A program made the translations under genes and the position numbers. A model generated the notes under the pieces. The model ran no database searches. It had not been told where the DNA came from and saw only the letters and a program-made list of their open reading frames with translations. Below are positions 1 to 51,533 of a stretch of 51,533 nucleotides of DNA, piece after piece (the stretch's first letter is position 1; every line of letters begins with the position of its first letter). The DNA comes from a virus. The DNA lies in IMG/VR virus record IMGVR_UViG_3300045988_053936; one strand, 5' to 3'.

Positions 1-119
1 CTTTCTTCTTTGCGGTGTAGATTTTGCGCCGACCAGTCAGGCCATCAACCGGCCATTCGGATATAGCCCGAACAGTATCGTTTTCAGTCACCTTGTCACC
101 TCCAGAACAACAAAAAAAG
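1..119. repeat. Terminal direct repeat (circular assembly overlap or terminal redundancy), identical to 51415-51533
   Basis: Base-by-base identity of 1-119 with 51415-51533. It contains the portal RBS and the first 91 nt of the portal CDS. Confidence 0.95.
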
Positions 120-157
120 TGCCAAGAACAGACCCGTAAAGGTCCACTCTCGGCACT
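111..157 (-). terminator. Intrinsic terminator about 20 nt upstream of the portal RBS
   Basis: In minus-strand RNA a 10-bp stem pairs 157-148 with 127-118, with an inner GACC/GGUC stem, followed by U7 (118-112). One pair is G-U on the minus strand but an A-C mismatch on the plus strand. Confidence 0.65.
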
Positions 158-198
158 CGGCACGCTTCGTCCAGGCATTGCCCGGAGGCACTTGGCAC
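152..198 (-). repeat. GTGCCAAGTGCC motif (198-187) plus variant GTGCCGAGTGCC (163-152)
   Basis: Same 12-mer and orientation as the copies at 2741-2783 and 41864-41890. The variant copy is the 5' arm of the 111-157 terminator. Confidence 0.7.
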
Positions 199-212
199 TA
201 AACTATATATTT

Positions 213-380
213 TCAGGCGCTCTTTTCGCCTTTCAATTCGATTTTAATGTTCTTCTTGCAAGCCTTACAGTATGGGTAAACAATACCAACTGCCTTACTA
301 TCCACCTGCATCAAAAGCCGCCCTTTTCCATGATTGATACCGGCGGCAGCGCAAACAGGACAATAAACGTCAATCTTCAT
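213..380 (-). CDS. Small zinc-ribbon protein (Cys-rich KTR-like), 55 aa
   Basis: ATG at 380 lies 11 nt after GAAAGGAG. Translation MKIDVYCPVCAAAG...YPYCKACKKNIKIELKGEKSA has CPVC...CKAC pairs. It is below the ORF-track length cutoff. Confidence 0.5.
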   Translation of the reverse strand: MKIDVYCPVCAAAGINHGKGRLLMQVDSKAVGIVYPYCKACKKNIKIELKGEKSA

Positions 381-928
381 TCAATGGACGACTCCTTTCG
401 GTCTTTGGCACCGCTCCCGTCTCTCGCAACTGCGAGGCGGCGTATGTGCGCTTCCCGCTTAGATTGTCACACCTGCGTCATATGGATATGCCATATGGTA
501 CTTTACCCGATCCGGTACAGGTAGTTTTCAGCGGGATAGCGCCGGGACAGGTCATAGCTGCCACCGCTTTTTTACCCGACACTATGACTGTCGGCTCTGC
601 CGCATGGAGGGCGCGACCCTCCGACCCTGATTGTGGGCTGCATCGTGCTGCGGCATATGTCCCCGCCAATACTAATACCCGCGTAGGGACGTAGGCGTCA
701 ACGCATTGGAGGGGTATATCGTTATCTTCTCCGCATGTCGGCTTCGATTGCGAAACTCTGGAGCAGGCTAACGTGAAGGGAGTCCCCCGGCAGGAAACGT
801 ACAAGAGAGGCTCTCCTTTCCGTTTAATATCTGCTCACTAGATACCCTGCCGGGGGAGTGGGTTATCCTTTGGGCCGTGGTTGGTCACAGCCCGAAAGGG
901 GAGGAAAATTGGATAATTATGTTTACCC
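381..928 (-). ncRNA. Candidate long structured leader or large ncRNA (class unknown)
   Basis: About 550 nt between a promoter-like element (935-964) and the small ORF, with no SD-preceded ORF. Many GC-rich hairpins, for example 784-794/846-856, 606-622, 576-594 and 479-497. Confidence 0.3.
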
Positions 929-934
929 AAATAT

Positions 935-965
935 ATTATACATCAATCGTTGTTAAGATAACAAC
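935..965 (-). promoter_or_regulatory. Sigma-70-like promoter with overlapping operator-like inverted repeat
   Basis: On the minus strand, TTGTTA (964-959), an 18-nt spacer, then TATAAT (940-935). A perfect inverted repeat GTTGTTA-N3-TAACAAC (949-965) covers the -35 element. Confidence 0.45.
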
Positions 966-1034
966 CTATATATCTATATGTGTCTAATGGTGTTAGGGTC
1001 GGGAGAAATTAACCACTCGGGGGCGATTATCGCC

Positions 1035-1053
1035 TGACGCTAACATGACGCTA
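1035..1053. repeat. Direct repeat TGACGCTA x2, 11 bp apart, just downstream of terL
   Basis: TGACGCTA occurs at 1035-1042 and 1046-1053. The adjacent hairpin GGCGA-TTA-TCGCC spans 1022-1034. Confidence 0.5.
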
Positions 1054-1073
1054 GCAATGGATTATTCGAGATT

Positions 1074-2708
1074 TTAAAATGGCCGCTTAAATACTTCAAC
1101 CTTGTTTCCCTCAAGTTGTTGGACATATTCGGCAAATAGGCTCCACGCATCAGGGACATCATCGTTGCGGTTTTTCCCCGCCATTGTGTAACTACAAAGG
1201 AAATTCAACATCCGCCTATATTCCTTGTCCTTTTTTATGACAGAATTATCCTTGAATAGCACACGATCCTTAATAAACGGACTATTTACTATTATCCGAG
1301 TTTCCTTATTTGAGGTAGTGTATTTCGTCGTGATTTTTGCAATTCCGCCAGCCTCTTTGACTTCTTTCTGCACTTTCTCCGCCACTTTCCCACCGGCGCT
1401 GTTACTTTCAAACTGTCCTATCTGAGCCTTGTGCTGAACGAGTTTCGAGACCAACCGAGCCTCTACAACCTCTGGATTGCTGTTGTCACATACCACATCT
1501 TCGCAGTAGAAGTTATTCCCATATTGATAGCAGATCGGCATGACGCAGTAATCAGTGCCCTTGTCTTTTGTATCGCACACAAACAGAATTGCATCTGGTT
1601 TTCTATCAGGAAGCTCAAAGTACCGGCGCAGCTCATCCTCGCTATACAACTGACCCTCGCGCTCGATAGGCTGGTTCATATAGAGAGCACGCCAACTTGC
1701 ATCGTCCATTACTTCGCGTTGCTCATGATAAAATGCCGTAGTAAACCCAGCGTGGTTCCCGTAGTCAAAGTTACTCTCGTCATTTTCATCTAGCGCTGGC
1801 ATGACAATAAACTCTGCCCGGTTACTTTCCCCGTAGGACTGTTCCAATCGTCCTATAACATCGTGGATTGACCATCGAGTCGCAATATGAAGCTCCTTGC
1901 AATCTCCAATTTTCCGCTGCCGCAAATCTGTTGCGTATAGATTCCAGAGTTTATCCATTCGTTCCTTCGACAGTGCACTCTCCAGGCCATCAACCAGGTC
2001 ATCGCAATAAAGCAGATTTTCAGCTCGGACTTTACCTGCGTTTCCTGACCCAACAGACGAGAACTCCAATGTTGCAAATCGCTTTCCCTTCTTCGGGTCT
2101 GTTCCAAGATCAATCATCATATCCTGGGCGTTGGTCTTGACCACCTTGACTACCGGAAACACGTCATTCCAAAGATAATCCCCCTGCGGGTCCATAATAC
2201 GAATACACTCGTCATATACTCCGCGCAAAAATGCGTTCGAATGAGAACCGCCCAAAATCGGCTTTTCTGGGTTTCTCCCTCCAAGCCAAGTCAGAAAGAA
2301 CAGAGCCAATGTGGTCTTTCCCACTCCAGGGGGAAGAGAGATCGCCAGTAGGTCCAGTTCATTATCGGCCAATCGTTGCAACGCTTTTGCAATCCTGTAT
2401 AACTGCTTCCGTCTGGGCAAGTAGAACCTCTTTGAGGGCTCTCGGTTCCACTCAATATACCGGCAATGCGCATCAAAATCATACGGCGCATCAAACAGCA
2501 GACTCCGCTTGTTCAGCTCGAACATACGGATGCTTTTTTGTTCTGTGGCGAATTTCGCAGACAGCCGCCGCACTTCCTTGTTCCGCTCATGCGCCAGCGT
2601 AAAATCTTCTGGCTCCAACAATCTGATCGAATCAAACGCATCAGATAGCGCAGATGGGTCGGACAAATCTCTCTGAAATGCCCTCTTTACCAACTCCCGA
2701 ATTTCCAT
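1074..2708 (-). CDS. terL: Terminase large subunit
   Basis: Large ORF with Walker-A-like LPPGVGKTT and typical TerL length and architecture. The start was moved to ATG 2708 (MEIRELV), 10 nt after GGAGG. Confidence 0.9.
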   Translation of the reverse strand: MEIRELVKRAFQRDLSDPSALSDAFDSIRLLEPEDFTLAHERNKEVRRLSAKFATEQKSIRMFELNKRSLLFDAPYDFDAHCRYIEWNREPSKRFYLPRRKQLYRIAKALQRLADNELDLLAISLPPGVGKTTLALFFLTWLGGRNPEKPILGGSHSNAFLRGVYDECIRIMDPQGDYLWNDVFPVVKVVKTNAQDMMIDLGTDPKKGKRFATLEFSSVGSGNAGKVRAENLLYCDDLVDGLESALSKERMDKLWNLYATDLRQRKIGDCKELHIATRWSIHDVIGRLEQSYGESNRAEFIVMPALDENDESNFDYGNHAGFTTAFYHEQREVMDDASWRALYMNQPIEREGQLYSEDELRRYFELPDRKPDAILFVCDTKDKGTDYCVMPICYQYGNNFYCEDVVCDNSNPEVVEARLVSKLVQHKAQIGQFESNSAGGKVAEKVQKEVKEAGGIAKITTKYTTSNKETRIIVNSPFIKDRVLFKDNSVIKKDKEYRRMLNFLCSYTMAGKNRNDDVPDAWSLFAEYVQQLEGNKVEVFKRPF

Positions 2709-2709
2709 T

Positions 2710-2747
2710 AAAAAAGTGCCTCCTATCCCGTAGGATAAAAGGCACTT
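2710..2747 (-). terminator. Terminator-like hairpin that sequesters the terL RBS
   Basis: In minus-strand RNA a 15-bp stem pairs 2747-2733 with 2728-2714 (two G-U pairs that are C-A mismatches on the plus strand). It has a UACG tetraloop and a U6 tract ending 1 nt before the ATG. The GGAGG sits in the 3' arm. Confidence 0.6.
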
Positions 2748-2783
2748 GGCACTGTTCGCTCCATCTGGAGAGGCACTTGGCAC
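2741..2783 (-). repeat. Two perfect copies of GTGCCAAGTGCC (2783-2772 and 2752-2741)
   Basis: Read directly, 31 bp start-to-start. The proximal copy is the 5' arm of the terL hairpin. Confidence 0.8.
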
Positions 2784-2793
2784 TCACAATATT

Positions 2794-3330
2794 TTATTTC
2801 TTTTCTTCAAAATTTTCTATCGCATTTATAAACATTTCTCCGCATTTGTCGTATACTTTTTGCCCCAAACCATGCAAAGAAACAAATTCTTCTTTCGTTT
2901 TCGGCTTATATGTTGCAAGTGATACCAATGCATCATTGGTAATCATCACTGGTATCCTGTTATGAAATCGAAAGTCATATAAGAACATTAACATTTTTTC
3001 GTCGGTTAAGATATTCCCGCTATCATCCGCGATCAAATTGAAATCGCCATTCCTAATGTAATTGATTTTCTTTTCCTTTTTAACATGGTATTCTGAATTT
3101 GTTTGGTCATATTCTCCCTTTTTATATTGTTTCCTCAAAATAATGTTTCCATGATAATCCAAAATTTCATATTTCGCGCATTCATCAGCACCAGACAGTA
3201 CCATTTCTCTCCTATGCGCTTTCATTTTCGAGATAAGGTAGTCTTTTCTTTTTGAAATATTGATCGGAATCCCGTTAATGTTCAAAGATAATTGGTCAGG
3301 TTTGGGATACGGTATATCATATTTATACAT
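2794..3330 (-). CDS. Hypothetical protein with C-terminal HRDC-like domain
   Basis: 178-aa ORF in AT-rich DNA. The C-terminus ALVSLATYKPKTKEEFVSLHGLGQKVYDKCGEMFINAI resembles HRDC helices. Confidence 0.45.
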   Translation of the reverse strand: MYKYDIPYPKPDQLSLNINGIPINISKRKDYLISKMKAHRREMVLSGADECAKYEILDYHGNIILRKQYKKGEYDQTNSEYHVKKEKKINYIRNGDFNLIADDSGNILTDEKMLMFLYDFRFHNRIPVMITNDALVSLATYKPKTKEEFVSLHGLGQKVYDKCGEMFINAIENFEEKK

Positions 3331-3332
3331 AT

Positions 3333-3566
3333 TTAATCCTCCGCCGGTTCAGGCCACGGCATCCAGTGAGTTACCTTTGACCCGGCAAATCGGCCAGATG
3401 CCCACCCACATGCAAGTCCATCATCTTCCCAAACCTCATAAAAACCGTTGTGCCATCTTGCCTGTGTCTTCCACACATATCTATGCTTATCCATCCAACT
3501 TTCAATCGTGATAAGAATTAGTTCCCCGTCTGTCGGCATCCTATCAGCGCATTTGATCCAGTCCAT
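3333..3566 (-). CDS. DUF551-like protein
   Basis: MDWIKCADRMPTDGE...THWMPWPEPAED matches the DUF551 pattern. A paralog lies at 14550-14912. Confidence 0.6.
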   Translation of the reverse strand: MDWIKCADRMPTDGELILITIESWMDKHRYVWKTQARWHNGFYEVWEDDGLACGWASGRFAGSKVTHWMPWPEPAED

Positions 3567-3849
3567 TTTGTTCGGACACCCTCCCCTGAATTTTATTCAT
3601 TATCTCCATGAAATCTTTTTGTCTTTCGATCAATGCTTCTGCCTGTTGCTTCATTCTTACATATGCTTCAATCGTCTTTATACTTCTCATAACGCAAAAT
3701 CCGCAGACAATAGCGCAGAATAATCCTGAAATGATTGAAAACAGCCTTCCTGATACCATACCCCACATGAAATTACCGGCCCCAAACGCTACTGCAAACA
3801 AACAAAACACAATCAGAGCCTTGCTGTTCCGTATTGCCTTCTTATACAT
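3544..3849 (-). CDS. Small membrane protein (two predicted TM segments plus coiled coil)
   Basis: Hydrophobic stretches ALIVFCLFAVAFGAG and LFSIISGLFCAIVCGFCV. ATG 3849 lies 8 nt after GGAG. Confidence 0.55.
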   Translation of the reverse strand: MYKKAIRNSKALIVFCLFAVAFGAGNFMWGMVSGRLFSIISGLFCAIVCGFCVMRSIKTIEAYVRMKQQAEALIERQKDFMEIMNKIQGRVSEQNGLDQMR

Positions 3850-3882
3850 ATTCAAATCTCCTTTTTTGTTTTGCGCGGAATT

Positions 3883-3978
3883 TTAGTCCGATCTCCTTGC
3901 CAGCACATACCACTGACTCCTGCTAATTCCCATCTGCTTACAGGCGGCTGCTACTGTGATGGAGCCGTCTTTTTGCAT
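3883..3978 (-). CDS. Possible 31-aa resolvase-type HTH mini-ORF
   Basis: MQKDGSITVAAACKQMGISRSQWYVLARRSD resembles the C-terminal HTH of serine recombinases. There is no clear SD, so it could be a gene remnant. Confidence 0.25.
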   Translation of the reverse strand: MQKDGSITVAAACKQMGISRSQWYVLARRSD

Positions 3979-3989
3979 TTTGAAAAATT

Positions 3990-4328
3990 TCAGGCCGGTT
4001 CACTTGAAATCCATTTATCATTCGTCAAAAGGTTCATCAGATAATTTACCCGCTTGCCAAACAATGTTTTCCCCATATTCATGTAAATCATCAGCCCAGA
4101 AAGAATTGCGGCATCACCTGTGTCGTTTTCTGACTGCGGCTTGAATGTGTATCCCTCGTTTTCAAAAACAATAGTGCAATTTTTCTCTTTTGCTATCCAA
4201 AGGAACGCAGGCAAATCTTCTGGGTTTTTCTCAAATCGAAAAACAGAATCTATGTGCATCGTTCCATTCTCTACAACTTTTTCTTCAAGATAAGACAACA
4301 GGCCATGATTGAACACTTTTTCATCCAT
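3990..4328 (-). CDS. Hypothetical protein (112 aa)
   Basis: ATGA start/stop overlap with the recombinase gene. AT-rich. No family recognised. Confidence 0.55.
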   Translation of the reverse strand: MDEKVFNHGLLSYLEEKVVENGTMHIDSVFRFEKNPEDLPAFLWIAKEKNCTIVFENEGYTFKPQSENDTGDAAILSGLMIYMNMGKTLFGKRVNYLMNLLTNDKWISSEPA

Positions 4329-4939
4329 CAGTTATCCTCCTTATAGTATCTGTCCAGTTTCGGGTCATACTGTCCGTGGCTTTCCTCCCACTTTGCAACC
4401 CTTCGATAAAATGTGTTCGGCTTTAACCCAAGATTGCTCATTGCCTTTTTTGCTGTAATGATTTTTGAACGCCATGCCTTGTATTGTTCCTCAAAATCAG
4501 CATCCTCGATTTTAATAGGAACACGCCCCTTATACTCTCCGCGAGCTTTCTTCAATTCAATTCCTTCTTGCTGGCGCTCGCGGATGCACTCTCTCTCAAA
4601 CTGGCTGATGGACGCGAGAATAGTCAGCAACATCCGTCCCGCCGGAGTCTTGGTATCAATCGTCTCCTTCTGGCTGATGAACTCGACACCCTTCGCCGTC
4701 ATAATATCTGTGATTTCCAAAAGGTCTTTTGTACTCCTTGCAAGACGGCTGAAACTCTCAACAATAATCGTATCGCCCTCCCGCATAAAGTCCAACATGG
4801 CTTGCAACTGCGGCCTCTGCATATTCTTTCCGCTACACATATCAATATAAACCTTATCAACGCCAAGCCGATCCATAAGAACCTCCTGGCGTTCCGGGTT
4901 CTGCGTTACGCTCGAACACCTAACATATCCAATCTTCAT
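4328..4939 (-). CDS. Small serine recombinase (resolvase/invertase family)
   Basis: The N-terminus MKIGYVRCSSVTQNPERQ carries the catalytic Ser motif and the C-terminus has an HTH (TFYRRV). It has its own promoter and an AAAGGAGG RBS. Confidence 0.85.
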   Translation of the reverse strand: MKIGYVRCSSVTQNPERQEVLMDRLGVDKVYIDMCSGKNMQRPQLQAMLDFMREGDTIIVESFSRLARSTKDLLEITDIMTAKGVEFISQKETIDTKTPAGRMLLTILASISQFERECIRERQQEGIELKKARGEYKGRVPIKIEDADFEEQYKAWRSKIITAKKAMSNLGLKPNTFYRRVAKWEESHGQYDPKLDRYYKEDN

Positions 4940-4961
4940 TTACTCCGCCTCCTTTGACTAT

Positions 4962-4990
4962 ACTATACCATGTGTTTCTTTATGTGTCAA
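4962..4990 (-). promoter_or_regulatory. Promoter of the recombinase cassette
   Basis: On the minus strand, TTGACA (4990-4985), a 17-nt spacer, then TATAGT (4967-4962). An imperfect palindrome TTGAAA-N4-TTTCAA at about 4998-5013 lies just upstream. Confidence 0.6.
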
Positions 4991-5218
4991 TAGAATTTTG
5001 AAATATTTTTCAAATAAAAGGTCTTTTTGAGCGTGTCGCACAATTCGGTGGTGAGGTAGGGGGGCGGGCGCTTTCTCTACCCCCCAGGGGTGTACCGGCC
5101 CGCAATCCGGCTTGTCATATAGGTATACTCAATGGAAACGCTGGTTTCACATATAATATATGTGTCGCATGGGTTCTTGTTCCATTGAAAATTATTTCAT
5201 TTAATCAATAAAACCCTA

Positions 5219-5247
5219 TTGACATATATAACCAAATATGCTATCAT
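5219..5247 (+). promoter_or_regulatory. Promoter of the plus-strand small-ORF cassette
   Basis: TTGACA (5219-5224), a 17-nt spacer, then TATCAT (5242-5247). Confidence 0.6.
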
Positions 5248-5300
5248 ACAATCACAGCAAGGGAAACCGAGCTGAATTCACCGGGCAGGAGGTAAACGAA

Positions 5301-5432
5301 ATGGAGATTGATAGCATGACCCAAACCGAATTAGCGTCATACCTCGAAACACTGGCAAGGCTGGTAGAGGCCACGGCCAAGGACGCACAGGACGCGGCCC
5401 GCATTATCCGAGAGGCCATCCCCAAGCAGTAA
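5301..5432 (+). CDS. Hypothetical small protein (43 aa)
   Basis: ATG 5301 follows CAGGAGG. The track start at 5238 lies upstream of the predicted transcription start. Confidence 0.5.
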   Translation: MEIDSMTQTELASYLETLARLVEATAKDAQDAARIIREAIPKQ

Positions 5433-5571
5433 AAAAAGATAGCCGCCCTACCCTGAACAAGTAAGCGGCTATCTAACAAAGAACACGGGGCGGCATGGCC
5501 TGCCACATGTCGCCCCTAGTGTAACACAACCGGCAGGGAAAAGCAAGGCCACAGGCCGGGAGGGAAAGAAA

Positions 5572-5724
5572 ATGAAGCATTATCAAGTGATAGCATTAAA
5601 CAGGAGCACGGGCGCAATGGACTACACAAGCAAATTATTATCATGGCGAGAAGTAAACCAAATATATTTTGACTCTGTAAAAAACCACACTAACCACGAG
5701 ATCGTTATTGTGACCAACAAATAA
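5572..5724 (+). CDS. Hypothetical small protein (50 aa)
   Basis: GGGAGGGAAAGAAA precedes the ATG. Translation MKHYQVIALNRSTGAMDYTSKLLSWREVNQIYFDSVKNHTNHEIVIVTNK. Below the track cutoff. Confidence 0.45.
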   Translation: MKHYQVIALNRSTGAMDYTSKLLSWREVNQIYFDSVKNHTNHEIVIVTNK

Positions 5725-5772
5725 AAGCCCCGGCCACCGCTCGCAACAGTGACCAGGAAGAAAGGAGAAAAC

Positions 5773-5973
5773 ATGAGTTATTGCCAATACATGGAGCACT
5801 GGAAAAATCATCGAAAAGATCGTTATACGCAACCATTATTTTACGCAGAAATGGCCGCAAGTCTCCAGGGCGACGGCTTTACAATCCTGTTTGATGATAG
5901 CAGCATCAGCGCAAAGGCAAACGCCGCAAACCGGGCAGCGGTCAACAAGGCCGCAAGGAGGGTCGCGCAATGA
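5773..5973 (+). CDS. Hypothetical small protein (66 aa)
   Basis: AAAGGAG lies 5 nt before ATG 5773. ATGA overlap with the next ORF. Confidence 0.55.
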   Translation: MSYCQYMEHWKNHRKDRYTQPLFYAEMAASLQGDGFTILFDDSSISAKANAANRAAVNKAARRVAQ

Positions 5974-6275
5974 AAATGAATCAGCTTTTCACCGCCTATT
6001 ACGCAGATAGAACGGCAGTTTATGAAAAAAGCCTTGATTATATCTATTCGCATAACCCGGACAATTTAAGAGAAATCCGCCCCACAATTTGGCTTTGGAA
6101 AGGAAATATTTCCCCTGTTTTCTTCGTGGACTATGTGGGCGATGGTGTGGGCTGTACCCTTGCCACATTCGACAATTTAGCAGACGCGCAGAAATACCGG
6201 GAGCAAATCGGGGAAATGACCGAAGAAGAGTTTGAAAACTGGCTCATAAATGAGCGATGGGCGGCGCGGTCTTGA
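5970..6275 (+). CDS. Hypothetical protein (101 aa)
   Basis: Translationally coupled ORF. No family recognised. Confidence 0.6.
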   Translation: MKMNQLFTAYYADRTAVYEKSLDYIYSHNPDNLREIRPTIWLWKGNISPVFFVDYVGDGVGCTLATFDNLADAQKYREQIGEMTEEEFENWLINERWAARS

Positions 6276-6305
6276 CCCGCCCGCCGGAGAATGGAGAATA
6301 TTACA

Positions 6306-6458
6306 ATGGCTAAAACGCTTGATGAAATTCAGATTGACCGGCTTTATGACCTGCTCCGCCGGGCGGAACGTGAGCGGGATACCGAAAGCGCCGCCGCGCT
6401 CCGCTGGGCCATTTTTACGCTGGAAATGGAGGCAAAAAATGAAAAAATCAGTCCTTGA
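6306..6458 (+). CDS. Hypothetical small protein (50 aa)
   Basis: GGAGAA lies 7 nt before the ATG. Translation MAKTLDEIQIDRLYDLLRRAERERDTESAAALRWAIFTLEMEAKNEKISP. Confidence 0.45.
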   Translation: MAKTLDEIQIDRLYDLLRRAERERDTESAAALRWAIFTLEMEAKNEKISP

Positions 6459-6711
6459 CCGTATCGCGGCCCGGCTTATGGCCGTAGGTATACAGACAGA
6501 CAGCAGCGCGATCTATCGCTCCACCGCAGACGATGCGGAGCCGGTCCCGGTGCTTATTGCCCGGCATAACTACAACGGGCCATATCCCACGCGTGAGACC
6601 TGGCAAACCATCGAGACAGTCCGCCGCATCTGCAAGCGGTATAATGTCGCGCTGGATATGCGCGGATACTACCAAGCAACCTATATCCGCGAGGAGGTGA
6701 CCCCCGAATGA
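6439..6711 (+). CDS. Hypothetical protein (90 aa)
   Basis: ATG 6439 (MKKSVLD) lies 6 nt after GGAGG, an internal start within track ORF 6250-6711. Confidence 0.55.
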   Translation: MKKSVLDRIAARLMAVGIQTDSSAIYRSTADDAEPVPVLIARHNYNGPYPTRETWQTIETVRRICKRYNVALDMRGYYQATYIREEVTPE

Positions 6712-6917
6712 GCTATCAAATCATCACATACAGCCCCGATATAGGGACAGACGAACGCGGGGACTACAAAACCCAAAAAGAGGCCCGGCAAGCACTCAAG
6801 CAATACCGGCAAGAGGCCGGGGCGCTGATCTACGATCTCGACCGTTGGTGCATCGTCTACCGGCGCGGCTACTGGCCCGCCGGGGCGCTCCCTGTTGAAA
6901 GGGGGTGCCTTGCTTGA
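6708..6917 (+). CDS. Hypothetical protein (69 aa)
   Basis: ATGA overlap with the upstream ORF. Confidence 0.55.
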   Translation: MSYQIITYSPDIGTDERGDYKTQKEARQALKQYRQEAGALIYDLDRWCIVYRRGYWPAGALPVERGCLA

Positions 6918-7022
6918 TCGTACTTTTTATTCTGCTCCTACCGCTCATGGTGATATGGGAGCTTGCCAAAAAATCTTGACGGCCTCAAGCGGGCGAGATA
7001 CAATCAATAAGAGGTGCTATAC

Positions 7023-7355
7023 ATGAGATTGTCCCCAGATATGATCCAGCGCGTTGAGAATATAGCCGCCAGCGCGTTATATAACTATGAGGCCGTGGGC
7101 GTCCGCGTCCAGGATGTCCCGTTTTCTCCCGGCACTATGTCCCACTGCTCCCATATCTGGGACAACGGAGACGATACCGGCGAGGAGCTGCCCGGCGTGT
7201 CTGCTATGCGTTGGGACTCCATCAACGAGGCGCAACGGCACGGCTACTATTACGGCGATTATGTGGCCGTCATTGCTGGCAACTCGTGGGACTACGGCGA
7301 GGACTCTGGGGAGATCGTCATACATGACCCGATTGTAATTGAGATATTAGCATAA
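7023..7355 (+). CDS. Hypothetical acidic protein (110 aa)
   Basis: ATG 7023 follows AAGAGGTG. It is followed by a strong terminator. Confidence 0.6.
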   Translation: MRLSPDMIQRVENIAASALYNYEAVGVRVQDVPFSPGTMSHCSHIWDNGDDTGEELPGVSAMRWDSINEAQRHGYYYGDYVAVIAGNSWDYGEDSGEIVIHDPIVIEILA

Positions 7356-7363
7356 TACCACCG

Positions 7364-7398
7364 CCCGCCCTGGAGCTTCCTGGGGCGGGTTTTCTTTT
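7364..7398 (+). terminator. Intrinsic terminator ending the plus-strand cassette
   Basis: CCCGCCC (7364-7370) pairs with GGGCGGG (7383-7389), followed by TTTTCTTTT. Confidence 0.75.
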
Positions 7399-7634
7399 GC
7401 TCATGTCCCTATGCCCTCCAGTAGCTTCCCGCCGCTTGTGTGGCCTCCTATGGTCAGCAGGCGGCATTTTTGCGCCCGTATCCAGCGGGGCAGGAGAAAG
7501 GTAAAACGCAAAGCTTCAGTAAAGGCCATTTGCAGGCCCGCAAGGCGGCCTTGCCACCCTGTAGTGTCCCTATATTTCCACTCGCCAAAACGGCCCATAG
7601 CGGCCCGCACAGCGCCACACAAGGCATAAAGCAA

Positions 7635-7682
7635 CCCCGGCCCACTCCATCAGGGAGCAAGCCGGGGTATTATTATTTGTTG
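7635..7682 (+). terminator. Orphan terminator-like hairpin in an ORF-poor spacer
   Basis: CCCCGGC (7635-7641) pairs with GCCGGGG (7661-7667), with an inner CUCC/GGAG stem and a T-rich tail TATTATTATTTGTT. Confidence 0.35.
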
Positions 7683-7819
7683 CGGGCCAGGGAGAGAACA
7701 GCGCAACGGCTCTTGTTTGCGTCCTACCGGGCGCAGCGGGAGCCGGGGCACAAATACATATCGTTCAAAGTGATACCACCGCTTGCTCGGCATCCACTCA
7801 TAAGCAGAGGGCAAAATTT

Positions 7820-7926
7820 ATAGTCGATAACTCCTGACGGATTTTCATCCATAGTCGCAGCCTCCAAATAGTCGTTTCATAGTCCTTTGACTTCCAAAAA
7901 GTTCCTGAAATAGTCGCTGATAGTCG
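7820..7926 (+). repeat. Six same-orientation ATAGTC(G/C) repeats downstream of terS (candidate pac or protein-binding array)
   Basis: Repeat starts are at 7820, 7851, 7868, 7879 (ATAGTCC), 7910 and 7920, giving spacings of 31, 17, 11, 31 and 10 bp. Further copies lie at 8337, 8466 and 8754, with near copies at 8538 and 8694. Confidence 0.7.
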
Positions 7927-7927
7927 T

Positions 7928-8467
7928 TTACTCCTCCACCACCACAGACCCGGCGATCCGCTCTTCAAGCTGCTTTTGGTCGGTTATAGTCCCTAGCGGA
8001 TTGTTGGGAGTAAGAACAACCTCGGATTTGTCCACAAGGCCGTCATAGTTCTTTTGCCACCATACTAAAGTTACCGGATTTAGCTTGCCGTCAGCGCCCA
8101 ACATTTCGCGGTAAGCGGCGCAAAATTTCTTAACTTTTTTAATGAATTCGGAGTGCGCAGAGCTGCGTGAACGCCCATTTTCCCAATCATACACTTCATC
8201 TTTGTTCAAGCCAAGTGCAAGGTATGTTACTTGATTGGTCACTCTAACGTCATGCTCCGAACAATAGTGAACGAACTTCCAGAACCTATCTTCCAGAGCT
8301 TGAACATCGGACTTATCAACATCCCCCCAACTAAGGATAGTCGCAAGCACTCCAGCATACTTAGCATTGTCGCCGGGCTGAGTATGTACCCCGTTATCTC
8401 CAATCACAGGTGAGTTCCCGCCTCTTGGCTTCATCTTGCGCTTAACAAGTTCTTTCCCCTGCTCCAT
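7928..8467 (-). CDS. terS: Terminase small subunit (putative)
   Basis: GLNKDEVYDWENGRSRSSAHSEFIKKVKKFCAAYREMLG...NPVTLVWWQKNYDG resembles the TerS HTH plus oligomerisation region. The start at MEQGKE (8467) follows the upstream stop. Confidence 0.6.
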   Translation of the reverse strand: MEQGKELVKRKMKPRGGNSPVIGDNGVHTQPGDNAKYAGVLATILSWGDVDKSDVQALEDRFWKFVHYCSEHDVRVTNQVTYLALGLNKDEVYDWENGRSRSSAHSEFIKKVKKFCAAYREMLGADGKLNPVTLVWWQKNYDGLVDKSEVVLTPNNPLGTITDQKQLEERIAGSVVVEE

Positions 8468-8474
8468 AGTCGTA

Positions 8475-8954
8475 TCATTCTTGTTCAGAGTTGTCACCCT
8501 CCTCCACGACATCAAATCTATCATCATGTCTCCATCCATAGTTGTAAGGTTTGATAGCGTTGCAGATCAAGTCTTTGCAGATGTTCATAAAGTCTTTTAC
8601 CTGTTGCTCCGTTAGTTTTCCGTCTCCCCATGATTGCGCGGATTGCAAAGCATCACATCCAGAACAGGACCCATACCACGCAAAAGTCATGAGATAGTCT
8701 TCCGGGTCCGGCTGGTAGGAATTGAATGGAATCAGATAAATCAAAGTCCCTTGATAGTCGCCATCATCAATTTCGTGAACTCTGTCTATAAAAAGATTCT
8801 CATTGTCGAGTCGGCTATCATCATTATAAATCTTATCAAAGGCAATCTTTACAAGGTCTACATAGCTACATTCATTCAGATCATCTCTTGAGGACAGTTC
8901 TGTTCTGAGCTTATCCTTGTTTTTATCCCAGAGTTCTTTCATGATTTTTAACAT
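8475..8954 (-). CDS. Hypothetical protein (159 aa)
   Basis: AT-rich ORF in the operon that leads to terS. Confidence 0.6.
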   Translation of the reverse strand: MLKIMKELWDKNKDKLRTELSSRDDLNECSYVDLVKIAFDKIYNDDSRLDNENLFIDRVHEIDDGDYQGTLIYLIPFNSYQPDPEDYLMTFAWYGSCSGCDALQSAQSWGDGKLTEQQVKDFMNICKDLICNAIKPYNYGWRHDDRFDVVEEGDNSEQE

Positions 8955-9312: not shown

Positions 9313-9341
9313 ATCATATATCATGATATTCTAGTTGTCAA
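9313..9341 (-). promoter_or_regulatory. Sigma-70-like promoter upstream of the 94-aa / 159-aa / terS operon
   Basis: On the minus strand, TTGACA (9341-9336), a 17-nt spacer, then TATGAT (9318-9313), in an AT-rich gap. Confidence 0.55.
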
Positions 9342-9344
9342 CCT

Positions 9345-9527
9345 CTAGCCCATGATTTTTTTGATTGGCCGGTAATACTTCTCAATTGTGGCCCATCGTT
9401 CTCCACAAAATTGACATTTCCTGTGACGTTCTATCCTACCTCCCATAACCGTATGACTTCCATAAACAACTCCTTCTCTACCGCAATTAGGGCAAATTCT
9501 AGCTGCTGTAATATTATCTGGCATCAT
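9345..9527 (-). CDS. Zinc-ribbon protein (NrdR-N-terminal-like), candidate regulator
   Basis: CPNCG...RHRKCQFCGERWATIE resembles the NrdR-type CxxC...RRRxCxxCxxRFTTxE ribbon. It is the last early gene before the terS-operon promoter. Confidence 0.45.
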   Translation of the reverse strand: MMPDNITAARICPNCGREGVVYGSHTVMGGRIERHRKCQFCGERWATIEKYYRPIKKIMG

Positions 9528-31011: not shown

Positions 31012-31234
31012 CGTACAAAAGCTCATTCTGTCGGATAAACCGTTCCAATCCGGAGAAGTCTCCCTCCGCCGCATACTTCTCGCAGGTGTCTCTTGCTGTG
31101 GACTCCGTGAAGCCGCAGGCCACCAGCCGGGCCACCAATTCAGCACCATTCAAAATCAAATCAAACACGTCCTTATCAGTGAAATCAGGAGGCCGCAAGG
31201 AGGGCGGCGACGTGTACCAGCCCTTGATCCTCAC
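30989..31234 (-). CDS. Hypothetical protein (81 aa)
   Basis: GTG start only 2 nt after GGAGG, so the start is uncertain. Confidence 0.4.
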   Translation of the reverse strand: MRIKGWYTSPPSLRPPDFTDKDVFDLILNGAELVARLVACGFTESTARDTCEKYAAEGDFSGLERFIRQNELLYDDRKQYV

Positions 31235-31350
31235 GTCCTCCTATTGATATTGTCGCATAAAAAAACTTCCGCTGGGTGGCATCTATGTGGGAGATATGAG
31301 GGGAGTGTGTATTATGTATGCTGGTATCTGAAGAATTTTGCAAAAATGTG

Positions 31351-38238: not shown

Positions 38239-41200
38239 TCATGTAATGGGAGAGCCCTTTTCTCGCTGCGTCTGTTGGTTGTATTTGTACAGGCTCCTCG
38301 ACACCTGACGGCCATCCAGAGAAACTGTTGTATCTTTATCGTTGACTGCCTTAGTAATCATTGCACCGATTGCCATGACCGCATTGATGACTCCGGTATT
38401 AGCAGAAGCGATACCGTCAACGATTTGGTCATTGTTCGCCACCGCTGCTCGGTTGCCCATTTGACCAACTAGCTCAGGCCCATCCTCACGGGCAATGAAC
38501 ATTTGCCCATGCTCGGGGAAGCCGCCGGACGCGTATGCAGTGATATCCTGAACAGAATAGCTGTTGGCCGAACGGGAAGAAGAATTTTCCGAACTATACG
38601 ATGCGCCATTCCCGAGATTTTTGATGGCATCTTGCAGCAGGCCAGAACTGGTGAATCCCTTATACATGTTATCTGCCATTTGCTTTCCTAGATTTTCAAA
38701 CTGGCTCATATCAATAGATTGGCTAAAATGATTGATTTCCGTTTTCAAATCTTCCATTCCATCAATACCGGCGTCTCCAACTCCAGATTCTTCTTGCTTT
38801 AACCCAATAATAGAATCTGTAAGACCTTGAGTTTCACTTTGAAGATCACTGTATAGCTGAACCGATTGCATGTATGTTTCCTGTGCGGCTTTTGCCGCTT
38901 CGGTTTCTTTCTCTCTTGCAGCGACAAGTTCTCTGGCTTTCCCCCAACTGAAAATGTCTGTTTCGTTGAGTTCTTTTTGTGTGTTATTTAATGCTTCTGC
39001 GGCCGCATCATAATCCTTTGCCGCCTGTTGCATATCACGCATTGCCTGATATTGCTCTTTATAACTCTCAACAAGCATTTCTCGCAGGGCTTCCATTTTG
39101 GCCTCTCGCTCCAAAGAATCAATCAGCTCGTCAACGGCGGCTTTACTTTCTTTAACTCGTTGTGTTGTTTCATCAATTTCCAAATGTAGCCCATCAATGT
39201 TCAAATCGTTCAGAACTTGAACTTTTACCGCCATTTGATCTAATTCATAAGCAGATGCATTTGCATTATCGTTAATGGCATAAATTTCATCTGCAAGCTG
39301 TCTGGCAACTTGGAAATCAGCAATAGACGAATCAAAATCTTCTAAACGATTTTTCATATTGGTAAACGCTTGGTCTGTGCGTTCAGACGCTTCTGTGCAA
39401 CGGTCAAGAATGTCCGCCATGATTGCAAAATCTTCTGACGCCGCATACGCCGCATTTGCTGCCGTTTCTACACCAACAATTTCGAGAACAATGCCAACAC
39501 CAAGTCCGATAACGGCACCAGCAGCAGTACCAATAACAGGAACAACGGAGCCGATTCCCGCACCAGTTAATACAGACCCGAGTATTGTCATCAGTCCACC
39601 AGAAAGAGTTGCAGCGCCCTCTTTAATTTGTGCAGTAATTCCCATAATCACAAGAGATAATCCAACCCCGATTACTAGACCGAAAGCGGCTCCAGCTCCT
39701 CCAGCAATGACTGCGCCGATGCCAAATCCAGCCAAAGCTCCGCCAATGAGGCCCATGATCCCATTTCCAATATTAAGCCCATCTTGAAGAATCGACGTGA
39801 TAGACGAAATCAAGAGAGACACGCCAATTCCTGCAATTATGCCACCAAGAACCCCTTGCGCAGGATTTAGATTTTTTCTGAATGCAAAGTATCCGCCAAG
39901 CGCTCCTCCAGCCAATGCACCGCCAATAGCACCTAAAAGGACATTCCCAAAGTTCAGTCCGTCTTTGATTTGAGAGGCAATGGACATGACCATCAAGGAA
40001 AGTCCAAGACCGACAACAGCTCCAAGCAGCATTCCGCCAGCCCAAGTGAGGCCAAGTTTCTTAGCCAAAAGCAGGCCAAGTCCAGCCCCAGCAAGTGCTC
40101 CTCCAGCTGCGCCTTTTAGGATGTTTTCCCATGTTAGCCCATCCCCAAAAAGAATGTCTTTTACACTGTCAATTAGCAAAGAAATACCTACCGTGAACAT
40201 CAACCCGCCTAGCAAAGCCTTGAGGCGGCCGATATCTGTAAACAACGTCCTTGCAATTCTCCACGCAAGCAGTGCAGAACCGATGGGAATGATATAGTTG
40301 TCAAGCAAGTCTTTCAAAACAGGTTTGATTTCGTCCACTTGCTTTTTTAACGCATCAAGGGCGGTTTTGTCCCAAATATCCGGTATTTCAAGATCGTCGG
40401 TCCATTTTCCGACTTCTCCAGTATCCAATTTGATTTCGTTGGATGCACCAATGATATTTAGTTCATCGATTCCTAAAAGCTGCTGCTTTAGCTTTTTTAA
40501 TTCGTCAGTTGTATCGCCAACGGAATCGGCAGCGGAGTCAGCATTTTCTTTGATATCTTCTCCCCAATCATTGGTTTCCCATTCCGGCATTTCAAATCCG
40601 ACCAGAACAGCAAACCGCTGAATTGCCTCCGTCAATATCTCAACAAATGCTTGAACCCATGGGATTACCTGAATGAGGATAGGAACAAACACCGTGCCAA
40701 TCGCTCGACCAAGCTGAGTAATTTGCTGGCGCAGCACTCTCATAGCATTTGCGGGGGATTCCAAGGTTTTTGCAAAATCTCCAATAGCCCCGATCCGGGA
40801 GGCCCCCTCCATCAGAACCAGACTCCGCAGTAATGCCTTTTCCTGTTCTGTCATAGACATAACGCTTTCATCAATGCCATGAGCAAGCGCATATTCCTGT
40901 AAGGTGGCCTGACTAATCGAAATACCTAAGCGACGGATAGGCTCAATTTCGCCAGCAAGGGCAGACTGCAAACGTAAGACCGACTGTTCTGTGTCCTCGT
41001 TATACAGAGAACTCAGGTCATAGGCCAGTTCTGTCAAGCCCTCGCTTAGGTCATAAGCTTGTTGCCGTGCTAACCCAAAACCGTTTGCCATAGACATGAA
41101 CACGCCTTGCGCACGCATCCACTCTTCGGGGTCGATGCCAAGTCGGTCATTGACCAGCATGGCATAGTTATAGGCTTCGTCATAAAACTCACCCATGGAG

Positions 41201-41841: not shown

Positions 41842-41863
41842 ATTGCCACCACCTTTCTATATT

Positions 41864-41890
41864 GGCACTTGGCAATAAAGCACTTGGCAC
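41864..41890 (-). repeat. GTGCCAAGTGC (41890-41880) plus TGCCAAGTGCC (41874-41864) motif pair upstream of the tape measure
   Basis: Same orientation as the motif copies at 152-198 and 2741-2783. Confidence 0.7.
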
Positions 41891-41914
41891 TAAAATATAA
41901 AATTCCGCTACCTC

Positions 41915-41935
41915 AAACTTCATAGAGATAGCGGA
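41915..41935. repeat. Left copy of the 21-bp inverted repeat flanking the lipoprotein moron
   Basis: AAACTTCATAGAGATAGCGGA is the exact reverse complement of 42942-42962. It is also part of a local 10-bp hairpin (41905-41934). Confidence 0.9.
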
Positions 41936-41950
41936 AACCTCGATACGCCT

Positions 41951-41990
41951 AGAAATAAAACGGCCCTCCGCCTATTCCTAAGCGGAGGGC
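41951..41990 (-). terminator. Terminator of the lipoprotein moron
   Basis: A 9-bp stem GCCCUCCGC/GCGGAGGGC is followed by CGUUUUAUUU on the minus strand. Confidence 0.7.
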
Positions 41991-51505: not shown

Positions 51506-51533
51506 CTTGTCACCTCCAGAACAACAAAAAAAG
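51415..51533. repeat. Terminal direct repeat, identical to 1-119
   Basis: See the feature at 1-119. Confidence 0.95.

What the first reader, a model, noticed from the sequence alone, without database searches (positions are those of the whole stretch)
2741..2783. GTGCCAAGTGCC motif marks each point where the late operon resumes after an insert
On the transcribed (minus) strand, the 12-mer GTGCCAAGTGCC is GTGCC-N2-GTGCC, a 7-nt-period dimer. It occurs perfectly at 2783-2772, 2752-2741 and 198-187. Near-perfect copies lie at 163-152 (GTGCCGAGTGCC), 41890-41880 and 41874-41864. All copies are intergenic and in the same orientation. They fall in only three places: just upstream of terL, of portal and of the tape measure gene. 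Each place lies directly after an inserted cassette: the AT-rich recombinase island, the leader/zinc-ribbon unit, and the lipoprotein moron. Under uniform base composition a given 12-mer is expected about 0.003 times per strand in 51.5 kb. At two sites the proximal copy is the 5' arm of a terminator hairpin. That arrangement resembles RAT-type antiterminator targets, or operator and promoter elements for a phage late regulator. I know of no described motif matching it.
Basis: partly seen in the sequence, partly recalled or inferred. Interest (0 to 1): 0.72.

Follow-up and report, generated by a model that had tools for sequence, protein, structure and literature searches.

The report
Repeated RNA gate before phage late genes
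A conserved, undescribed RNA leader sits in front of the terminase, portal and tape-measure genes of this gut-bacterial phage and hundreds of relatives: two copies of GUGCCAAGUGCC, the second forming one arm of a terminator or ribosome-site-hiding hairpin, which most likely keeps late genes off until some factor binds the repeats.

Summary
There are 6 copies with at most one mismatch against 0.29 expected. All are on the minus strand, at three junctions before terL, portal and the tape measure gene.

The element has a defined anatomy. Box 1 is followed by either 2-3 nt or a covarying hairpin plus a short linker, and then by box 2. The AAGUGCC of box 2 is the 5' arm of a hairpin that closes with GGCAC. 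That hairpin is followed by a U-run (a terminator) and/or encloses the Shine-Dalgarno sequence.

The same boxes occur in more than 150 related viral contigs, including ones I retrieved through protein homology alone. There they precede terL, portal, scaffold-like, major tail and tape measure genes. Nothing matches in Rfam, in GenBank phages or in the searchable literature.

No promoter fits between the boxes and the start codons, and no conserved promoter lies upstream of box 1. The two spacer classes are equivalent only if the spacer folds. I therefore read it as an RNA-level gate opened by an unidentified trans-acting factor.

The best candidate, still unproven, is a 55-aa basic zinc-ribbon protein (213-380). 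It is always encoded between terL and portal and has its own promoter. This recalls Mu Com acting on mom mRNA. The "marks inserts" idea is only partly right.

The parts
2772..2783 (-). terL site, box 1 (GUGCCAAGUGCC)
   Evidence: Exact match. Invariant in the alignment of relatives.
2753..2771 (-). terL site spacer: hairpin P1 (CUCCA-GA-UGGAG, 2770-2759) plus linker CGAACA (2758-2753)
   Evidence: The spacer folds as a hairpin. All 5 P1 pairs show changes on both sides across relatives. At least 11 different stems were seen.
2741..2752 (-). terL site, box 2; its AAGUGCC (2747-2741) is the 5' arm of P2
2709..2747 (-). terL site P2: terminator-like hairpin 2747-2714 (15 pairs, UACG loop) plus U-run. 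The Shine-Dalgarno AGGAGG (2724-2719) lies in the 3' arm, and the terL ATG (2708) follows at once.
   Evidence: The terminator scan lists it. The fold is -34.7 kcal/mol with z -3.8. The pairs just inside GUGCC/GGCAC covary.
187..198 (-). portal site, box 1
   Evidence: Exact match.
164..186 (-). portal site spacer: hairpin P1 (UCCGGGC-AAU-GCCUGGA, 186-170) plus linker CGAAGC
   Evidence: The stem sequence differs from that of the terL site but occupies the same position.
152..163 (-). portal site, box 2 (GUGCCGAGUGCC)
   Evidence: One mismatch. The same A-to-G variant recurs in relatives.
110..158 (-). portal site P2: terminator-like hairpin 158-117 (19 pairs) plus U-run 116-110. The Shine-Dalgarno GGAGG (103-99) and the portal GTG (91) lie downstream.
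41864..41890 (-). tape-measure site, compact form: GUGCCAAGUGCU-UUA-UUGCCAAGUGCC (boxes start 15 nt apart, no P1)
   Evidence: The same compact and degenerate form is seen in relatives.
41842..41876 (-). tape-measure site hairpin: AUUGCCA...UGGCAAU encloses the Shine-Dalgarno GGUGG (41853-41849) and ends one base before the ATG (41841). There is no U-run.
   Evidence: Fold. Relatives have GUGCC...GGCAC-AUG at the same place.
41903..41990 (-). two terminator-like hairpins (41990-41963 and 41936-41903) that end the low-GC moron just upstream of the tape-measure site
   Evidence: The moron has GC 0.345.
213..380 (-). 55-aa basic four-cysteine zinc-ribbon protein (Zn55), my candidate trans-acting factor. 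Its stop codon lies 14 nt before portal box 1.
   Evidence: Present between terL and portal in 121 of 121 loci that hold both. The family has at least 157 clusters, identity down to 47%. The AlphaFold model has pLDDT 90.8. Every homologue context examined carries the boxes.
935..964 (-). sigma-70-like promoter (TTGTTA-18-TATAAT) just after terL, reading toward Zn55
   Evidence: An equivalent strong promoter lies 28-44 nt after terL in most of the 57 gap variants.
4962..4990 (-). sigma-70-like promoter (TTGACA-17-TATAGT with TG) of the resolvase-to-HRDC unit that reads into the terL gate

Best explanation
The element is a cis-acting RNA leader, a 'gate', placed in front of late structural genes. 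Two single-stranded copies of (A)GUGCCAAGUGCC (core CCAAGUG) are held close together, either by a 2-3 nt linker or by a small hairpin. The 3' half of the second copy is the 5' arm of a stable hairpin. That hairpin is an intrinsic terminator, and at many sites it also buries the Shine-Dalgarno sequence. By default the hairpin forms. It then stops transcripts arriving from the promoter-driven units upstream (resolvase-HRDC before terL; structured leader-Zn55 before portal) and/or blocks translation. A sequence-specific trans-acting factor that binds both boxes would strip the 5' arm from the hairpin and open the gate. The same factor would open three gates in this phage and four or more in relatives.

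Shown here: the anatomy, its conservation, the covariation, and the lack of room for a promoter. Inferred: that a factor binds and that binding opens the hairpin.

My leading guess for the factor is Zn55 (213-380), acting like Mu Com on mom mRNA. I give that sub-claim about 0.35.
For: - Enrichment and orientation of the boxes.
- Terminator-like hairpins whose 5' arm is box 2.
- Of 101 unique sites from relatives, 96 have a 3' arm complementary to the end of box 2, and 85 of those 96 are followed by at least 5 U. At 32 sites the Shine-Dalgarno sequence is inside the hairpin with the start codon at most 14 nt beyond.
- Compensatory change: GUGCU pairs with AGCAC in L304, L305 and L321.
- Covariation on 57 distinct sequences: 91% of cells paired against 76% in shuffles, and 126 double-change cells against 39. 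The many G-U pairs fit the sense-strand RNA and not the opposite strand.
- Spacer lengths are bimodal: 2-3 nt or 17-29 nt, with none of 4-16 nt. Every long spacer folds into a hairpin at the same position, using at least 11 different stems. The two forms are equivalent only in a folded single strand.
- No conserved -35/-10 lies upstream of box 1, and there is no space for a promoter downstream of box 2.
- The upstream units have their own sigma-70-like promoters.
- The boxes are unchanged in loci found through Zn55 homology alone, where Zn55 is 47-100% and terL 42-85% identical to the window's.
- For Zn55 specifically: it is universal in the lineage. Its stop codon is at most 60 nt from box 1 in 27 of 44 distinct contexts. 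It has its own promoter. By direct count of its sequence it has a net charge of about +6. Mu Com, a small zinc-finger protein encoded just upstream of its target, binds CC(N)2-3GAG next to an inhibitory hairpin (PMC6483171), and the box core is CC-AA-GUG.
Against: - No binding, transcript-end or read-through data exist.
- No alternative antiterminator structure is visible in the RNA.
- At the tape-measure site two terminators lie upstream of the boxes, so RNA polymerase must get past them in some other way.
- Zn55 lies downstream of the terL gate and is driven by a strong constitutive-looking promoter. If it opened gates it might do so in lysogens unless that promoter or the long leader is controlled.
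- Zn55 shows no convincing homology to Com: hhalign probability 33%, and a Pfam Zn_ribbon_Com hit in 1 of 17 members at E 0.016. Fold searches were uninformative.
- Because Zn55 and the boxes are both universal in one lineage, their co-occurrence cannot be told apart from shared ancestry.
- The factor could equally be a host protein.
Confidence: 0.6

Rival explanations
1. The boxes act in DNA. They would be operators or activator sites, or the promoter itself, for a phage late regulator or sigma-like factor that restarts transcription at each junction.
For: AT-rich -10-like hexamers often lie just upstream of box 1 (TATAGT, TATATT, TAAAAT). Terminators or terminator-like hairpins end the upstream cassettes at the tape-measure site and in one common terminase context, so a restart would make sense. 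The phage encodes small zinc-ribbon and region-4-like proteins.
Against: The -10-like hexamers vary in sequence and in distance, and they are absent from several contexts. No -35 is conserved. The box-to-box distance is either 14-15 nt or 31-41 nt, which no fixed double-stranded DNA geometry fits, and the extra length is always a covarying hairpin. The 7-nt repeat period does not match the DNA helical repeat. At terL, box 2 to the ATG is 32 nt, all of it hairpin and U-run. G-U pairs are frequent in the helices. The 60-aa zinc ribbon and the 79-aa protein are missing from relatives with identical boxes.
Confidence: 0.1
2. No trans-acting factor is involved. The elements would be leaky terminators or insulators that shield late genes from read-through out of upstream cassettes and set expression ratios. 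The extra GUGCC copies would be spare 5' arms for the GGCAC arm, or would persist as homology patches for recombination between mosaic phages.
For: Each of the four GUGCC pentamers can pair with the single GGCAC. Variable cassettes (resolvase, RelB/ParE toxin-antitoxin, Mob_Pre, tRNAs, a lipoprotein-like moron) sit directly upstream of the elements. The elements are far better conserved than the flanking genes, so they would serve well as recombination linkers.
Against: Pairing alone would permit covariation of GUGCC with GGCAC, yet the box sequence is almost fixed across lineages in which terL has fallen to 42% identity. Box 1 and the conserved CKAAVA linker have no role in a plain terminator. 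With no promoter downstream, a simple terminator would starve terL and portal of transcripts. Hiding the Shine-Dalgarno sequence at 32 sites is hard to explain for a mere insulator.
Confidence: 0.15
3. The boxes are an RNA processing signal. A host or phage endoribonuclease would cut in the single-stranded repeats and leave the hairpin as a protective 5' cap on each late mRNA segment. The analogy is with the intergenic RNase III sites of T7 and with 5' stabilisers in Bacillus phages (from my own knowledge, not tested here).
For: The copies are repeated, share one orientation and are intergenic along a polycistronic region. A conserved single-stranded segment sits directly 5' of a stable hairpin.
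Against: A 5' hairpin that buries the Shine-Dalgarno sequence would block translation of the stabilised mRNA. The U-run after the hairpin (85 of 96 sites) is a terminator feature and is not needed for a stabiliser. Nothing explains why two boxes must sit at a fixed effective distance.
Confidence: 0.07

Closest known systems
Phage Mu Com protein and the translation inhibition structure (TIS) of mom mRNA
   Same: A small basic zinc-coordinating protein is encoded immediately upstream of its target. It binds a short motif, CC(N)2-3GAG, next to a hairpin that hides the translation start signals, and binding exposes them (PMC6483171). Here a 55-aa four-cysteine zinc ribbon lies just upstream of a CC-AA-GUG box that adjoins and overlaps a hairpin hiding the Shine-Dalgarno sequence.
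   Different: There is no detectable sequence homology. The Com motif sits in a hairpin loop, whereas here two tandem single-stranded boxes are used. Here the inhibitory hairpin is also an intrinsic terminator. The element is used at 3 to 5 or more sites controlling structural genes, not at one DNA-modification gene. Binding has not been tested.
RAT elements bound by BglG/SacY/LicT-type antiterminators
   Same: The protein target overlaps the 5' arm of an intrinsic terminator in a leader RNA, so that binding prevents the terminator from forming.
   Different: A RAT is one imperfect hairpin of about 29 nt bound by a CAT-domain dimer. Here the conserved parts are direct repeats that are not paired with each other, and the intervening hairpin is optional and variable. 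No CAT/PRD protein was seen among the proteins scanned, though the scan was not exhaustive.
TRAP and HutP attenuation systems of Bacillus
   Same: Short RNA repeats at a fixed spacing are read by a multi-subunit protein to decide whether a nearby terminator forms. The compact form here is four GUGCC pentamers with a 7-nt period.
   Different: Those systems use 3-nt repeats (11 copies for TRAP, 3+3 for HutP). TRAP promotes termination. No ring-forming protein has been identified here. The element is a phage late-gene element used at several sites.
Lambda PR'-tR' with Q, and N with nut sites
   Same: A constitutive promoter is followed closely by a terminator, and late genes are expressed only when an antiterminator acts. 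The element is repeated in the genome, and a linear box is combined with a hairpin.
   Different: Q engages DNA at the promoter. N/nut acts processively from one or two sites and reads a conserved hairpin loop. Here the hairpin loop and stem are not conserved, the boxes overlap the very terminator they control, and each gated gene has its own copy.

Membership tests
Intrinsic (Rho-independent) terminator | G+C-containing hairpin immediately followed by a U-run | tested here: met
   2747-2714 and 158-117 are listed by the terminator scan. 85 of 96 unique sites in relatives have at least 5 U after the hairpin. The tape-measure-type sites lack the U-run.
Any Rfam family (release 15) | Covariance-model match at or near the gathering score | tested here: not met
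   At the gathering threshold the only match in the whole window is RAGATH-31, elsewhere. No match up to E = 1 in 1-3000. Relatives gave only tRNAs.
RAT / BglG-LicT antitermination | Target overlaps the 5' arm of the terminator | tested here: met
   AAGUGCC of box 2 is the first 7 nt of the terminator stem.
RAT / BglG-LicT antitermination | Target is a single conserved imperfect hairpin of about 29 nt | tested here: not met
   The conserved parts are two direct repeats. The hairpin between them varies in sequence and is absent from the compact sites.
RAT / BglG-LicT antitermination | CAT-PRD antiterminator protein encoded nearby | not tested
   Only about 35 window proteins were scanned against Pfam or PHROGs. 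None was CAT/PRD, but the scan was not exhaustive.
Mu Com / mom TIS translational activation | Small zinc-binding protein encoded directly upstream of the regulated RNA site | tested here: met
   Zn55 (213-380) has four invariant Cys (C7, C10, C38, C41) and a confident zinc-ribbon-like model. Its stop codon is at most 60 nt from box 1 in 27 of 44 distinct contexts.
Mu Com / mom TIS translational activation | Protein belongs to the Com family (Pfam PF10122) | tested here: inconclusive
   1 of 17 family members hits Zn_ribbon_Com, at E 0.016. Eleven of 17 weakly hit Cys_rich_KTR or DUF3797. hhalign against Mu Com gives probability 33% with a poor alignment.
Mu Com / mom TIS translational activation | Binding motif CC(N)2-3GAG lies next to a hairpin that hides the start signals | tested here: inconclusive
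   The box core is CCAAGUG (CC-N2-GUG), invariant at CC and GUG. It adjoins or overlaps a hairpin that holds the Shine-Dalgarno sequence at 32 of 96 sites. However, the central G-N-G differs, the two N positions are nearly always AA, and the motif is not in a loop. The Com motif is taken from PMC6483171.
Mu Com / mom TIS translational activation | Protein binds the RNA and activates expression | not testable with these tools
   This needs EMSA and reporter assays.
Sigma-70-type promoter with operator | Conserved -35/-10 at a fixed distance, and room for a transcription start upstream of the Shine-Dalgarno sequence | tested here: not met
   49 distinct upstream contexts share no -35/-10 at a fixed distance. 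At terL the 32 nt between box 2 and the ATG are all hairpin and U-run.
Lambda N / nut processive antitermination | Conserved boxB-like hairpin loop plus boxA | tested here: not met
   P1 loops and stems differ between sites (GA, AAU, UGCG, AUA, CUAGC and others), and P1 can be missing altogether.
TRAP/HutP-type repeat-reading attenuation | Regularly spaced short RNA repeats next to a terminator | tested here: met
   Compact sites are GUGCC-AA-GUGCC-N2-3-GUGCC-AA-GUGCC, a 7-nt period.
TRAP/HutP-type repeat-reading attenuation | Cognate oligomeric RNA-binding protein | not tested
   No such protein has been identified, and the oligomeric state of Zn55 is unknown.

The most novel reading that the evidence does not exclude
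The boxes and Zn55 would together form a previously unknown phage late switch that works on RNA. In this reading a 55-aa zinc-ribbon protein is transcribed from its own promoter inside the structural gene cluster. It binds tandem CCAAGUG boxes and simultaneously opens several terminator or Shine-Dalgarno-hiding gates spread along the late region. Late genes would then be expressed by read-through from whatever unit lies upstream. Because the protein gene sits just before one of its own gates, the circuit could act as a dose- or copy-number-sensitive timer. This would be a new antiterminator-RNA pair, common in phages of human-gut Clostridia.
Probability: 0.3. Interest if true: 0.8.

Novelty: new variant of a known kind. 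Interest (0 to 1): 0.66.

Why it matters
How temperate phages of gut Clostridia time their late genes is almost unknown, and no cultured model carries this element. The element gives a compact, well-defined RNA target of about 45-100 nt. Natural covariation data already exist for it, and there is a short list of one main candidate partner. That makes a late-gene control mechanism directly testable in vitro. If it is confirmed, the motif would mark late-gene starts in metagenomic phage contigs, explain why accessory cassettes and tRNAs collect at particular junctions, and add a small sequence-specific RNA-binding module to the antiterminator toolbox.

Tried and rejected
- Rfam, at the gathering threshold and at E up to 1, found nothing at the sites.
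- A full-text search for the 12-mer and its variants returned only unrelated primer sequences. Two keyword searches for a matching phage system also found nothing relevant.
- GenBank phages gave no match to the element.
The host therefore had to be inferred from a protein name.
- I looked for a trans-acting antisense RNA. There is no GGCACUUGGCAC-like sequence in the window. No anti-box is conserved in the 57 variants of the terL-Zn55 gap; the best duplexes are just the 3' ends of tRNAs that some relatives carry.
- Com homology of Zn55 is not supported. The PDB sequence search and the Foldseek searches of PDB and BFVD were uninformative.
- I considered the serine recombinase upstream of terL as a possible box-binding protein and rejected it. 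The boxes are direct repeats with no dyad symmetry. All copies share one orientation, so resolution between them would delete terL. Only 26 of the 117 motif-derived loci had a resolvase hit.
- DUF551 is often the gene just upstream of the terL gate, but it is absent from the 8 kb upstream of terL in L316.
- The mini-hairpin GUGC-CAA-GUGC proposed by RNAalifold inside each box is broken in the degenerate compact sites, so I do not treat it as structural.
- A weak fourth model hit at 16243-16172 (E 0.07) lies inside a 358-aa ORF and was set aside.

Full report

Yes. GTGCCAAGTGCC occurs exactly on the minus strand at 2783-2772, 2752-2741 and 198-187. One-mismatch copies lie at 163-152, 41890-41879 and 41875-41864. 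That makes six hits against 0.29 expected, and none of 100 dinucleotide-preserving shuffles reached six. Allowing two mismatches adds only one plus-strand hit inside a gene.

The genes downstream are the large terminase (1074-2708), the portal (50030-51505) and the tape measure (38239-41841). The window is a circular assembly with a 119-nt terminal repeat, so the portal start appears at both ends. It is IMG/VR contig 3300045988_132195.

**2. Anatomy, read on the minus strand**

At the terL and portal sites the order of parts is the same.
- Box 1 comes first.
- A small hairpin P1 follows. It is CUCCA/UGGAG at terL and UCCGGGC/GCCUGGA at portal.
- A 6-nt linker follows (CGAACA or CGAAGC).
- Box 2 comes next. 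Its last seven bases, AAGUGCC, form the outer 5' arm of a long hairpin P2.
- P2 closes with GGCACUU and is followed by a U-run.

Both P2 hairpins are picked up as terminator-like. The regions fold well below shuffled controls, with z of about -3.8 and -4.1. At terL the Shine-Dalgarno AGGAGG lies inside the 3' arm, and the ATG follows the U-run directly. No promoter could fit between the element and the gene.

The tape-measure site is a compact version. Its boxes start 15 nt apart with no P1. The second box overlaps a hairpin that encloses the Shine-Dalgarno sequence and ends one base before the ATG, and there is no U-run.

**3. Relatives**

Many contigs carry two sites 2-4 kb apart. A covariance model built from 25 sequences finds 135 matches in 100 sources, but only the three known places in the window.

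To avoid circularity I also fetched loci through the small protein encoded between terL and portal (see section 6). I did this in IMG/VR and, for the most divergent homologues, in other assemblies. Every one of these loci carries the boxes at the terL and/or portal junctions. This holds even where the small protein is only 47-50% and terL only 42-68% identical to the window's.

In relatives the element also precedes a major tail gene (phrog_158), scaffold-like genes, and small ORFs placed ahead of terL. It is not found before terS.

**4. RNA or DNA?**

Several independent points favour RNA.
- (a) The spacer between the boxes is either 2-3 nt or 17-29 nt, never 4-16 nt. Every long spacer folds into a hairpin that starts one or two bases after box 1, and at least eleven different stem sequences are used. 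The two architectures are equivalent only if the spacer folds, that is, in a single strand.
- (b) On 57 distinct aligned sequences, all five P1 pairs and five P2 pairs show changes on both sides. 91% of cells pair against 76% in shuffles and 43-51% when the partners are slid by 1-3 columns. That alignment was fitted to the model, so the numbers lean towards the structure. The independent per-sequence folds agree with them.
- (c) Where box 2 ends in GUGCU, the 3' arm reads AGCAC.
- (d) G-U pairs are common in both helices. They would be A-C mismatches on the other strand.
- (e) Forty-nine different upstream contexts share no -35/-10 at a fixed distance.
- (f) The 7-nt repeat period does not match the DNA helix.

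**5. What is conserved**

With only CC-NN-GUG fixed, the homology-anchored loci give box consensus GUGCCAAGUGCC. In the compact sites the last two bases of box 1 and the first three of box 2 are free to vary. The two middle bases are nearly always AA, occasionally GA or AU. An A usually precedes box 1, and the long spacers end in a linker close to C-K-A-A-V-A before box 2.

Such tight sequence conservation of unpaired RNA, next to freely varying helices, is what one expects of a site read by a trans-acting factor.

**6. The candidate factor**

The ORF at 213-380 encodes a 55-aa protein with four invariant cysteines. By direct count of its sequence it has a net charge of about +6. The model is a confident zinc-ribbon-like fold, pLDDT 90.8.
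- It lies between terL and portal in all 121 loci that contain both genes.
- Its stop codon is within 60 nt of box 1 in 27 of 44 distinct contexts.
- Most variants of the terL-to-Zn55 gap carry a strong sigma-70-like promoter 28-44 nt after terL. In the window this is TTGTTA-18-TATAAT at 964-935.

The closest precedent is phage Mu Com. [quoted passage not shown] It binds CC(N)2-3GAG beside the hairpin that hides the mom start signals (PMC6483171). The box core CC-AA-GUG resembles that motif.

This is an analogy only. Sequence comparison does not support membership in the Com family, and the structure searches were uninformative. Zn55 and the boxes are both universal in one lineage, so their co-occurrence does not prove partnership. 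A host factor remains possible.

**7. How it probably works**

Each gated gene lies downstream of a unit that has its own promoter.
- In the window, TTGACA-17-TATAGT at 4990-4962 drives the resolvase-to-HRDC unit straight into the terL gate.
- The promoter at 964-935 drives a 550-nt structured leader and Zn55 into the portal gate.
- terS (7928-8539) is cut off from terL by terminators and by a block of plus-strand ORFs.

I therefore propose that the hairpins stop these transcripts, or silence translation, until the factor binds both boxes and peels away the 5' arm. The logic is that of lambda PR'-tR' plus Q, carried out at the RNA level as in RAT or Com systems.

The weak points are these. There are no experimental data. 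The two terminators upstream of the tape-measure boxes are not explained. It is also unclear how Zn55 itself would be kept low in a lysogen.

**8. The 'insert' idea**

The island between terS and terL, the terL-Zn55 gap and the low-GC moron are indeed variable. But the element also occurs where nothing is inserted, and Zn55 is a core gene. The simpler reading is that the gates insulate late genes, so cassettes can accumulate just upstream of them.

**9. Novelty**

There is no Rfam family, no literature hit and no GenBank phage with the element. The kind of device, a leader terminator controlled by a bound factor, is known. The motif, its two interchangeable architectures, its use at several sites in front of structural genes, and the possible mini zinc-ribbon partner are new.

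The host range appears to be gut Clostridia. One homologue of the small protein is annotated from Anaeromassilibacillus, family Acutalibacteraceae.

Noticed in passing
window 381-1073 (minus strand); promoter-like site 964-935: The terL-to-Zn55 gap is noncoding. From the promoter-like site onward it is strongly structured (550 nt, -222 kcal/mol, z -5.9). It contains no tRNA and matches no Rfam family. Relatives have 57 mosaic variants of this gap, 77-2957 nt long, with no long same-strand ORFs; many hold 1-3 tRNA genes. Almost all start with a strong sigma-70-like promoter just after terL.
   Followed up: partly
window 31188-31241 (minus strand): A full-length RAGATH-31 RNA (80.3 bits against a gathering score of 71.8). 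It is the only Rfam match in the window.
   Followed up: no
window 2794-7927: A variable island lies between terS (7928-8539) and terL. It holds a serine recombinase/invertase (4328-4939) with its own strong promoter (4990-4962), a DUF551 protein, an HRDC-domain protein, and a block of plus-strand ORFs. Relatives carry a resolvase at the same place together with different cargo, such as RelB/ParE toxin-antitoxin genes and a Mob_Pre relaxase. That suggests a recombinase-associated cargo hotspot.
   Followed up: partly
window 1-119 and 51415-51533: A 119-nt terminal direct repeat shows that the window is a circularly closed assembly. The portal start therefore appears at both ends. The window is IMG/VR contig 3300045988_132195.
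   Followed up: yes
loci L118-L197 (for example L126, L132, L142, L155, L118): Long heptamer microsatellites, (GTGCCAA)n and (GTGCCGA)n, with the same 7-nt unit as the phage boxes, occur in intergenic DNA of very diverse bacteria (Longimicrobium, Paenibacillus, Akkermansia, Halieaceae, Nonomuraea). In L118 an inverted array forms a long hairpin. I assume they are unrelated to the phage element but did not examine this.
   Followed up: no
window 9313-9527 (minus strand): A 60-aa zinc ribbon (9345-9527) matches the NrdR N-terminal zinc-ribbon family. Directly after it comes a strong promoter-like site (TTGACA-17-TATGAT, 9341-9313) that would drive two small ORFs and terS. This may be the start of the packaging operon and a DNA-level late regulator, separate from the box system.
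   Followed up: partly
window 42003-42881 (minus strand): A moron-like 292-aa ORF with no Pfam family hit has GC 0.345 against 0.498 for the genome. Two strong terminator hairpins (41990-41903) close it just before the tape-measure boxes.
   Followed up: no
window 396-411 (minus strand): A half-box-like GGUGCCAAAG lies about 20 nt upstream of the Zn55 start codon, just before its Shine-Dalgarno sequence. It could be chance or an autoregulatory site.
   Followed up: no
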